Source of the DNA: Octopus vulgaris
Taxonomy: Eukaryota
DNA length: 64,000 bases
Direction of reading: 5' to 3'
Assembly: GCA_951406725.2 (NCBI GenBank)
Contig: OX597822.1
Coordinates: 68,200,001-68,264,000 of the forward strand
A model generated the notes under the pieces. That model had not been told where the DNA came from. It worked only from the letters and a program-made list of their open reading frames with translations, and searched no databases. A program made the translations under genes and the position numbers. Positions 26,460 through 54,110 of the stretch are shown here, one piece after another. Each line of letters begins with the position of its first letter. Position 1 is the first letter of the stretch.

Positions 26460-26535
26460 TCCATGGGCGTATGGTGTAGTGGTTAAGAGCGAAGGCTACT
26501 AACCCCAAGATTCCGAGTTCGATTCCAGGCAGTAA

Positions 26536-26570
<35 letters not shown>

Positions 26571-26752
26571 TCGAAAAATACCTTAGGAATGAGGGCCCAG
26601 GTTCGAAATTTCCCCCAAGACACCTAATGAAGGCTCGAGGGTATATCAGCCGAAACGTTGTGTTAACAACAAACAAGATGAGGACAAATTTCCGTCGAAT
26701 GTAAATAATGTAAATAATGTGCATAATTCCTCATCTCTTAAATATAGAACTG
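26460..26752 (+). mobile_element. tRNA-headed short element carrying a hammerhead motif and a 3' hairpin
   Basis: A box TGGTGTAGTGG (26472-26482), B box GAGTTCGATTCC (26515-26526), (AAT)n spacer, HHR motif, AGATGAGGA/TCCTCATCT stem. Candidate TSD TACAG (26455-26459, 26753-26757). 3' half matches 53355-53492. Confidence 0.8.
26619..26664 (+). ncRNA. Minimal hammerhead motif with AACGTT stem III; G5A in this copy
   Basis: GACAC-CTAATGA-a-GGCT...AGCC-GAAA-CGTT-GTGTT. Stem I GACAC/GTGTT, GUU site, stem III without a loop (formable only in a dimer). Confidence 0.65.
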
Positions 26753-53114: not shown

Positions 53115-53354
53115 TATGTGTATGTACGTGTGTTTGTATATGTATTTGTATACGTATCCATATATGTATGTGTGTATGTGTATTAACAGTATATACATTA
53201 ATAACAGAAAATAATTGCATCAACCATAAATACGATTCCACAAATAATTAGAGGAAGCACAGTCGACTGTCAGGTGACAATGAAAGAGGACTGTACCGAA
53301 GGGAAAGAGGACTGTACCGAGTCTAGTACTACACTTTTAGAGAAGGGAACAGTT

Positions 53355-53492
53355 CAGTTCTATATTCAAGAGATGAGGAATTATTTACATTATTTACATT
53401 TGACGGATATTTGTTCTCATCTTGTTGTTAACACAACGTTGTGTTAGCAACAAACAAGATGAGGACAAATATCCGTCAAATGTAAATAATGT
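53355..53492. mobile_element. Fold-back copy of the 3' half of the 26460-26752 element with 12-bp TSD
   Basis: Arms hinge on AACGTT (53435-53440); flanked by AAGGGAACAGTT at 53343-53354 and 53493-53504. Confidence 0.88.
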
Positions 53493-53711
53493 AAGGGAAC
53501 AGTTGTTTAAACCAATCCCAGTACTTCAAACGTGCTATCTCTATAAACCCCAGACGGATGGGAAAATCGACCGTGTGAAACGTAAAACGGCGTAATTCAA
53601 TAAAGCCAAGCATTTTATGCGACACGCTACCGATTTTTCCACACCACATCGACTGCCGTTTGATTGTAGACTACATTGCTTTTTCGCTTCACCTTTTATT
53701 TCGTTTTTTTA

Positions 53712-53759: not shown

Positions 53760-54110
53760 GACACAGCTTTGGCTGTGTGGTTAAGAAGGTCGCTCTGCAA
53801 CCACATCACTTTAGGTTCAGTCCTCCACTACATGGCAACTTGAGCAAGAGTCCTCTACTAGAGCCCTAGGCTGAACAGTGCTGTGTGAGTTGATTTGGTA
53901 AGCAGAAACTGTGTGGAAGCCTGTTTCCTCCTTCGCCTTGACAGCCATTGCTAGTTTGTTACATTCCTGTAATTTTAAGGTTTGGCAAAAGAGACAGTTA
54001 ATCTAAGTACTAGATTTACAAAATAAGTCGATTCACAAAATAAAACCACTGAAGCCCTTCAAGACAGTGCTCCAGCATGGCCGCAGTCTAAGGACAATAA
54101 CAAGTAAAAG
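53760..54110 (+). mobile_element. SINE family A, old copy
   Basis: Colinear with 24036-24462. Confidence 0.75.

What the first reader, a model, noticed from the sequence alone, without database searches (positions are those of the whole stretch)
53343..53504. Integration snapshot: fold-back at the ribozyme palindrome within a 12-bp TSD
Between two AAGGGAACAGTT copies lies the 3' half of the 26460 element in reverse, from its exact 3' end (CAGTTCTAT) to AACGTT, then the same sequence forward for about 55 bp. The hinge is the HHR stem III palindrome, adjacent to the predicted GUU cleavage site. This fits target-primed reverse transcription from the 3' end followed by snap-back second-strand synthesis in one event. 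The hinge includes 3-6 nt upstream of the cleavage site, so the template was not simply the cleaved 3' product.
Basis: partly seen in the sequence, partly recalled or inferred. Interest (0 to 1): 0.75.

Follow-up and report, generated by a model that had tools for sequence, protein, structure and literature searches.

The report
Penelope retroelement stub with mirrored ends
This is a short stub of a very common Penelope-type jumping gene: two back-to-back copies of its end between a 12-letter duplication, a shape already described for this group; its meeting point is a rare one, and the family's other copies suggest that the element likely copies its RNA from both sides of the cut at once.

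Summary
The structure is real: 12-bp direct repeats around a 138-bp insert with arms meeting at AACGTT. It is a severely 5'-truncated insertion of a Penelope-like element (PLE; at least 6,178 copies) in the family's usual form. Of 88 tail-selected copies, 63 carry an inverted tail-less arm, and 42 of these 63 have a TSD (31 of 11-14 bp). This architecture is published. Snap-back cannot be general: the inverted arm reaches further 5' than the tail arm in 26 of 56 clean junctions, and run-off ends at the cut site fall on either arm (9 vs 8). Best reading: both target ends prime on RNA at the element's two start sites, and the two cDNAs join by microhomology. Arm ends pile up at a tRNA-like head and at the predicted cut, hinting at in vivo cleavage. 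This copy came from uncut RNA. No empty site was found. The scan noted this pattern and these readings before, in this and other genomes.

The parts
53343..53354 (+). Left copy of the 12-bp target site duplication
   Evidence: family TSDs are mostly 11-14 bp; empty site not seen
53355..53440 (-). Tail-bearing arm: element end from position -1 (tail end) to -99 (AACGTT); inferred cDNA primed at the tail start site
   Evidence: 83% to the 26460 copy; coordinate frame
53355..53386 (-). 32-nt PLE tail, present on this arm only
   Evidence: unpaired in the fold; 58 of 63 inverted arms in the family stop 24-46 nt short of the end
53435..53440 (.). Hinge AACGTT shared by both arms (hammerhead A14, stem III ACGU, U17); predicted cut sites at 53440/53441 on + and 53435/53434 on -
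   Evidence: rare hinge: 4 places genome-wide
53435..53494 (+). Tail-less inverted arm, ending in the AATGTAAAT repeats with 2 nt of microhomology to the right TSD copy; inferred second cDNA primed at the internal start site
   Evidence: 95% over 60 nt
53493..53504 (+). Right copy of the 12-bp target site duplication
26463..26752 (+). Second family copy in the window: begins at the tRNA-like head, then an AAT run, the hammerhead and the tail; no inverted arm and no clear TSD seen
26465..26539 (+). tRNA-like head with A- and B-box-like motifs (not called by ARAGORN or Rfam); family arm ends pile up at its start
26619..26664 (+). Minimal type I hammerhead motif (this copy has CTAATGA where most copies have CTGATGA); predicted cut after 26659
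   Evidence: read from the sequence; features as in PMC4209133 passages; no Rfam hit

Best explanation
This is a 5'-truncated Penelope-like element insertion (tail arm, inverted tail-less arm, 12-bp direct repeats) that was likely made by priming on the element's RNA from both sides of one staggered cut. Shown: the anatomy, the family, and the distributions of arm ends and TSD lengths. Inferred steps: (1) the element's endonuclease cuts both strands about 12-13 nt apart, leaving two 3' overhangs; (2) one overhang primes at the tail start site (-1), the other at an internal site 25-45 nt upstream in the AAUGUAAAU repeats, often with 1-4 nt of microhomology; (3) both cDNAs run toward the RNA 5' end, probably from the same RNA or source locus, and stop by run-off (tRNA-like head at -278; predicted ribozyme cut at -93) or prematurely; (4) two same-sense cDNAs can pair only through self-complementary or inverted microhomology, so they join at short palindromes and are filled in. 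Here both cDNAs passed the cut site, so the RNA was uncut, and they annealed through AACGTT; that is an uncommon outcome with no special role for stem III.
For: 63 of 88 tail-selected copies have an inverted arm; 58 of the 63 stop 24-46 nt short of the end. TSD of 9 bp or more in 42 of 63, 31 of them 11-14 bp, against 1.1% in shuffled pairs. Of 56 clean junctions (63 less 7 with several switches or gaps over 30 nt), the inverted arm reaches 15 nt or more further 5' in 26, the tail arm in 20, and 10 are equal. An end at the tRNA-like head with a partner at least 30 nt shorter occurs on the inverted arm in 11 and on the tail arm in 7. Among 85 oriented short fold-backs, base -93 is carried by the tail arm only in 9, the tail-less arm only in 8, and both in 2. 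A recurring junction keeps the mismatched -93 base (4 of the 20 one-mismatch hits; P about 0.002) and is seen on either arm (L047 against L061 and L162). In vitro the anole PLE protein cleaves and extends both strands, starts at two internal RNA sites that bracket the tail, and is predicted to be a dimer (PMC11167929).
Against: No empty site and no biochemistry for this family. The window copy is symmetric, so it cannot by itself separate the models. Later deletions at the centre of a symmetric hairpin could also make arms unequal in either direction, and some three-piece junctions (L086, L167, L190) fit that. The arms of one insertion share subfamily variants more often than shuffled pairs (0.0093 against 0.0037 +/- 0.0009 per site; 31 of 34 concordant at site -125 after dropping 2 rows with a third base), which snap-back also predicts and which argues against two unrelated RNAs. 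In the unbiased set the excess of ends near -93 is small (11 of 112 ends in -100..-81). TGTTAACA has extra flanking complementarity, so part of its excess may be independent of the ribozyme. The samples hold segmental duplicates (L101/L103/L104, L120/L121, L138-L140).
Confidence: 0.6

Rival explanations
1. One reading: one priming at the tail, then the cDNA 3' end folds back on itself and is extended toward the target; unequal arms elsewhere in the family come from later deletion at unstable hairpin centres.
For: This copy is perfectly symmetric at a palindrome. Arms share subfamily variants. Symmetric hinges at palindromes are common among short fold-backs (23 of 85). Central deletion of palindromes is a known process (recalled, no call).
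Against: The inverted arm holds sequence absent from the tail arm in 26 of 56 junctions. Run-off signatures fall on the tail-less arm as often as on the tail arm. A cDNA ending in AACGTT is predicted to leave GTT unpaired. AACGTT is no more used than a control palindrome.
Confidence: 0.25
2. Self-priming on an antisense transcript makes a hairpin intermediate that the endonuclease then resolves into the target (hypothesis in PMC3846280; tail by EN resolution in PMC8557442).
For: Explains palindromes at head-to-head junctions and could give unequal arms either way (passages).
Against: The two peaks of arm ends sit at features of the sense RNA: the start of the tRNA-like head and the first base after the predicted hammerhead cut. 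The in vitro PLE reaction is target-primed on sense RNA.
Confidence: 0.07
3. The stub is the remnant of a longer inverted insertion whose centre was deleted through the two AACGTT copies.
For: Most family insertions are longer inverted pairs, and both arms of such pairs contain AACGTT.
Against: Such a deletion creates a perfect palindrome instead of removing one. It does not explain why hinges peak one base from the predicted cut rather than at equal palindromes.
Confidence: 0.06
4. Assembly or library fold-back artefact.
For: Palindromes are a known read artefact (recalled).
Against: The arms differ by 2 substitutions and a 4-nt indel, the tail is one-sided, the direct repeats sit at the junctions, and the same build recurs in 63 of 88 copies.
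Confidence: 0.02

Closest known systems
EN+ PLE insertion unit with inverted pLTR, one-sided tail and TSD (Pen2a_Av of Adineta vaga, PMC3846280, passages; overview PMC8557442 Fig. 2 legend and passages)
   Same: Inverted 5' copy of the end, a 30-40-nt tail on one side only, a short TSD, and palindromes at the inverted junction. L230 is a full-length example with a 12-bp TSD.
   Different: Extreme truncation (138 bp); TSDs of 11-14 bp rather than the 8-10 bp of those passages; the papers propose antisense self-priming or EN resolution and, in the passages read, give no junction statistics.
Poseidon_Ac (PAc) of the green anole, in vitro (PMC11167929, parts 1-2 of 4 read)
   Same: Hammerhead overlapping the ORF start, reverse transcription starting inside the RNA at two sites that bracket the tail, both strands cut and extended.
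   Different: That study found ribozyme cleavage unnecessary in vitro and no RNA-seq ends at the cut; here genomic junctions cluster at the predicted cut in about 1% of copies. A tRNA-like head is not described in the parts read.
L1 twin priming (PMC11702581, passages)
   Same: Second priming from the other target end, discrete TSD, inversion junction closed by microhomology.
   Different: L1 arms are adjacent pieces of one RNA overlapping by 10 nt at most; here both arms copy the same stretch from two fixed start sites, and this is the majority outcome.
Minimal type I hammerheads of metazoan PLEs (PMC4209133, passages)
   Same: Extra base between 9 and 10.1, G10.1-C11.1 pair, palindromic 15.2-16.2, needs a dimer.
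   Different: The finding holds only the stem III / stem I 3' part of the motif; cleavage was not assayed.

Membership tests
EN+ Penelope-like element (Penelope/Poseidon type) | Single ORF with a PLE-type RT in the parent element | tested here: met
   L102 RT piece matches PF00078 at E 5.8e-08; the DKG and LRPIVS motifs are visible in the broken ORF of L230 (motif names recalled); weak PDB matches include TERT at E 0.18
EN+ Penelope-like element (Penelope/Poseidon type) | C-terminal GIY-YIG endonuclease | tested here: inconclusive
   The motif YSIPC..G.VYKGET.R.L..R..EH is read by eye in L102 and in homolog P0001 (assignment recalled); Pfam gave no GIY-YIG hit in 3 of 3 pieces or 4 of 4 homologs
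EN+ Penelope-like element (Penelope/Poseidon type) | pLTR that overlaps the ORF start, the tail being ORF sequence | tested here: met
   Open frame from -163 through the tail; in L230 the tail runs directly into the ORF
EN+ Penelope-like element (Penelope/Poseidon type) | Inverted 5' copy with a 30-40-nt tail on one side | tested here: met
   32-nt tail here; 58 of 63 inverted arms stop 24-46 nt short
EN+ Penelope-like element (Penelope/Poseidon type) | Target site duplication confirmed by an empty site | tested here: inconclusive
   12-bp repeat here and 42 of 63 in the family; no empty allele in 8 runs laid
EN+ Penelope-like element (Penelope/Poseidon type) | Clade placement by RT phylogeny | not tested
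   No tree was built; the clade is inferred from domain order only
Minimal type I hammerhead | Core CUGAUGA / GAAA / UH, stems I and II, palindromic stem III | tested here: met
   Majority sequence of 88 copies and its fold; Rfam gave no hammerhead hit
Minimal type I hammerhead | Self-cleavage | not testable with these tools
   Indirect only: at 10 of 23 places the element sequence stops exactly after base -93, 9 are compatible, 4 run past (hand count)
Stand-alone tRNA SINE | Independent non-coding unit not part of an autonomous element | tested here: not met
   The head-to-tail unit is the end repeat of the ORF-bearing element (L102, L103, L207, L230), although many copies start at the head as a SINE would
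L1-type twin priming | Inverted and forward arms are non-overlapping pieces of one RNA | tested here: not met
   The arms duplicate the same sequence; it works like twin priming but is not the L1 product

The most novel reading that the evidence does not exclude
PLEs insert by double target-primed reverse transcription as their normal route: a dimer primes both overhangs on one RNA at two fixed start sites and the cDNAs are joined by microhomology. The junctions of this family record in vivo RNA 5' ends, from a tRNA-derived internal promoter or processing site in the pLTR and from hammerhead cleavage. That would explain the inverted pLTR and tail of the class and show that PLE hammerheads cut in the germ line.
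Probability: 0.5. Interest if true: 0.65.

Novelty: new member of a known kind. Interest (0 to 1): 0.4.

Why it matters
The locus itself is ordinary for its class, and the special role proposed for AACGTT fails. Its family, however, is a large natural record for an open question: how PLEs form inverted ends and tails (called undefined in PMC8557442 passages) and whether their weak hammerheads cut in vivo (not seen in PMC11167929). The mirror symmetry of the two arms and the single-base stop at the predicted cut give direct predictions for the existing in vitro system. I found no paper making this junction argument in searches; most subscription papers and all supplements were unseen.

Tried and rejected
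Empty site: 8 coded runs were laid. No joint skipping the insert was among the 15 joints shown (41 not shown), and one search listed none. Contigs of X4, X18 and X7 run from the right arm into the flank, but with under 31 element letters, so they only hint at the filled allele. Runs of organism C do not cover the flanks. Uninformative either way. Rfam found neither hammerhead nor tRNA, and ARAGORN found no tRNA in 10 of 10 loci, so both motifs rest on reading the sequence. The 16-mer AACGTT search gave 34 places against 60 for its control, and 3 non-family loci among those inspected, so it was replaced by the 26-mer test. Pfam and PDB searches did not name the endonuclease. Shared variants between arms do not separate the models. 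Enrichment of ends at -93 in the unbiased 56-junction set alone is too weak to count. The paper on dimeric PLE hammerheads was not held; I saw it only as cited in PMC6466107. A stand-alone SINE and an assembly artefact were considered and rejected (see membership test and rivals).

Full report
Observation. A 12-mer at 53343-53354 and 53493-53504 brackets 138 bp made of the family's end in reverse (53355-53440) and the same sequence forward (53435-53494), sharing AACGTT. The arms differ by two substitutions and a 4-nt indel. The strand folds into one long hairpin (z -14.9) with 32 unpaired bases at the left.

The family. The window lies in a 2.8-Gb animal genome; an octopus is my inference from recalled repeats and size, not a tested result. 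A 22-mer of the element's end has 6,178 exact matches, about 15,600 copies after calibration (34 of 86 tail-bearing copies hold the exact word). Longer copies continue upstream into an AAT run, a tRNA-like stretch and an ORF with RT (PF00078) and a C-terminal endonuclease-like motif read by eye; Pfam did not name the latter. L230 is a full-length copy with a broken ORF: 12-bp TSD, inverted tail-less end, then a short forward end whose tail runs directly into the ORF. So the 'exact 3' end' is the end of the PLE tail, an internal start site for reverse transcription, as shown in vitro for the anole element (PMC11167929, parts 1-2 of 4). The end repeat holds a minimal type I hammerhead with the features listed in PMC4209133 (passages); its predicted cut follows AACGUU, so the 3' product starts at -93, counting back from the tail end. 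Rfam did not detect it.

How common is the build? I took 88 of the 100 listed matches (all on contig C1, chosen by the tail only). 63 have an inverted arm within the 0.5-2.5 kb fetched, and 58 of these stop 24-46 nt short of the end. This is a lower bound: more appeared with longer fetches. TSDs of 9 bp or more were found in 42 of 63, 31 of them 11-14 bp, against 1.1% (at most 4.8%) in shuffled pairs. Inverted pLTR, one-sided tail, TSD and junction palindromes are described as the typical Penelope structure (PMC3846280 and PMC8557442, passages). The finding is a very short example of the norm.

The hinge test. Patterns for short fold-backs gave 103 places, of which the 93 listed were examined. 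One is symmetric at AACGTT; in 47 the longer arm ends at -96 to -92. Symmetric 26-mers with up to 2 mismatches number 4 for AACGTT (this copy included), 66 for TGTTAACA (-92 to -85) and 7 for the control palindrome GAAATTTC. Detectability is 0.38, 0.60 and 0.59, giving about 11, 110 and 12. Not all 66 were checked as family members; the reversed-pattern control was 0. It lies one base 3' of the predicted cut: where an arm reaches -93, the element sequence stops exactly there at 10 of 23 places (one ambiguous), is compatible at 9 and runs past at 4 (hand count). A junction that keeps the mismatched -93 base recurs in 4 of 20 one-mismatch hits. This suggests that cleaved RNA serves as template in roughly 1% of insertions. 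Against this, the excess is weak in the unbiased set and TGTTAACA has extra flanking complementarity.

Mechanism. Snap-back copies the first cDNA, so the inverted arm must be contained in the tail arm. In 56 clean junctions (7 of 63 dropped for several switches or gaps over 30 nt), the inverted arm reaches at least 15 nt further in 26, the tail arm in 20, and 10 are equal. 39 of 112 arm ends fall at -290 to -261, the start of the tRNA-like head; such ends with a much shorter partner occur on the inverted arm in 11 cases and on the tail arm in 7. Base -93 is carried by the tail arm alone in 9 and the tail-less arm alone in 8 of 85 oriented short fold-backs. The two arms thus behave as equivalent cDNAs made on sense RNA. 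This fits priming from both 3' overhangs at two start sites followed by microhomology joining, in line with the in vitro cutting and extension of both strands. For this copy, a cDNA ending in AACGTT is predicted to leave its end unpaired, whereas two such ends pair with each other. The main rival is symmetric snap-back with later central deletion; some three-piece junctions fit it, and arms share subfamily variants beyond chance, which both models allow if one RNA or one source locus feeds both arms. I put 0.6 on double priming for this locus and 0.25 on snap-back.

What was not shown. No empty site, no cleavage assay, no RT tree. The -278 end may be a Pol III start or a processing site; A-box-like motifs were found in 24 and B-box-like motifs in 13 of 29 heads, but ARAGORN calls no tRNA.

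Literature seen: PMC11167929 parts 1-2 of 4; passages of PMC8557442, PMC3846280, PMC4209133, PMC6466107, PMC11702581 and PMC13282606; part 1 of 5 of bioRxiv 10.64898/2026.07.22.740005 (no bearing on the junctions in that part). No supplements were read; they could hold junction data. Searches returned, by their listings, no PLE paper on twin priming and only PMC3846280 on self-priming of PLEs. Earlier notes of this scan, looked up after my reading was formed, report the same pattern and readings in this and other genomes; they are not counted as support.

Verdict. Real, a known kind of structure, and an uncommon hinge with no special role. The value lies in the family-wide junction record. Interest 0.4.

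Noticed in passing
family end repeat, e.g. window 26465-26539; L179, L181, L202, L197, L198, L219: The PLE end repeat starts with a tRNA-like head, and 39 of 112 arm ends fall at its start; many insertions are about 280-nt head-to-tail units without a run of four T, like a SINE embedded in its own autonomous element.
   Followed up: partly
window 53349-53359: The target end (ACAGTT) matches the element's tail end, giving tandem CAGTT-CAGTT. Possibly annealing followed by realignment, as telomerase does, or chance; one similar case (L189) among 88 copies.
   Followed up: no
window 26673-26738 and family: A stem GATGAGGA/TCCTCATC encloses 1-4 copies of an in-frame 9-nt repeat in which the tail-less arms end; it may be the structure that fixes the two start sites.
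   Followed up: partly
L175, L179, L181, L186, L200, L202: A subfamily carries CTGAAGA in the hammerhead core, usually on both arms and often with A>G at -56.
   Followed up: partly
L085, L179, L182, L190, L191, L194, L204: The AAT run inside the element is often interrupted by other repeats, some with LINE-like reading frames.
   Followed up: no
L084, L215, L117, L170: Junctions with short templated or untemplated inserts between the arms, like iterative microhomology-mediated end joining.
   Followed up: partly
window 53284-53320 and 53768-53900: A short tandem duplication left of the finding, and a tRNA-type SINE (recognised from memory) right of it.
   Followed up: no
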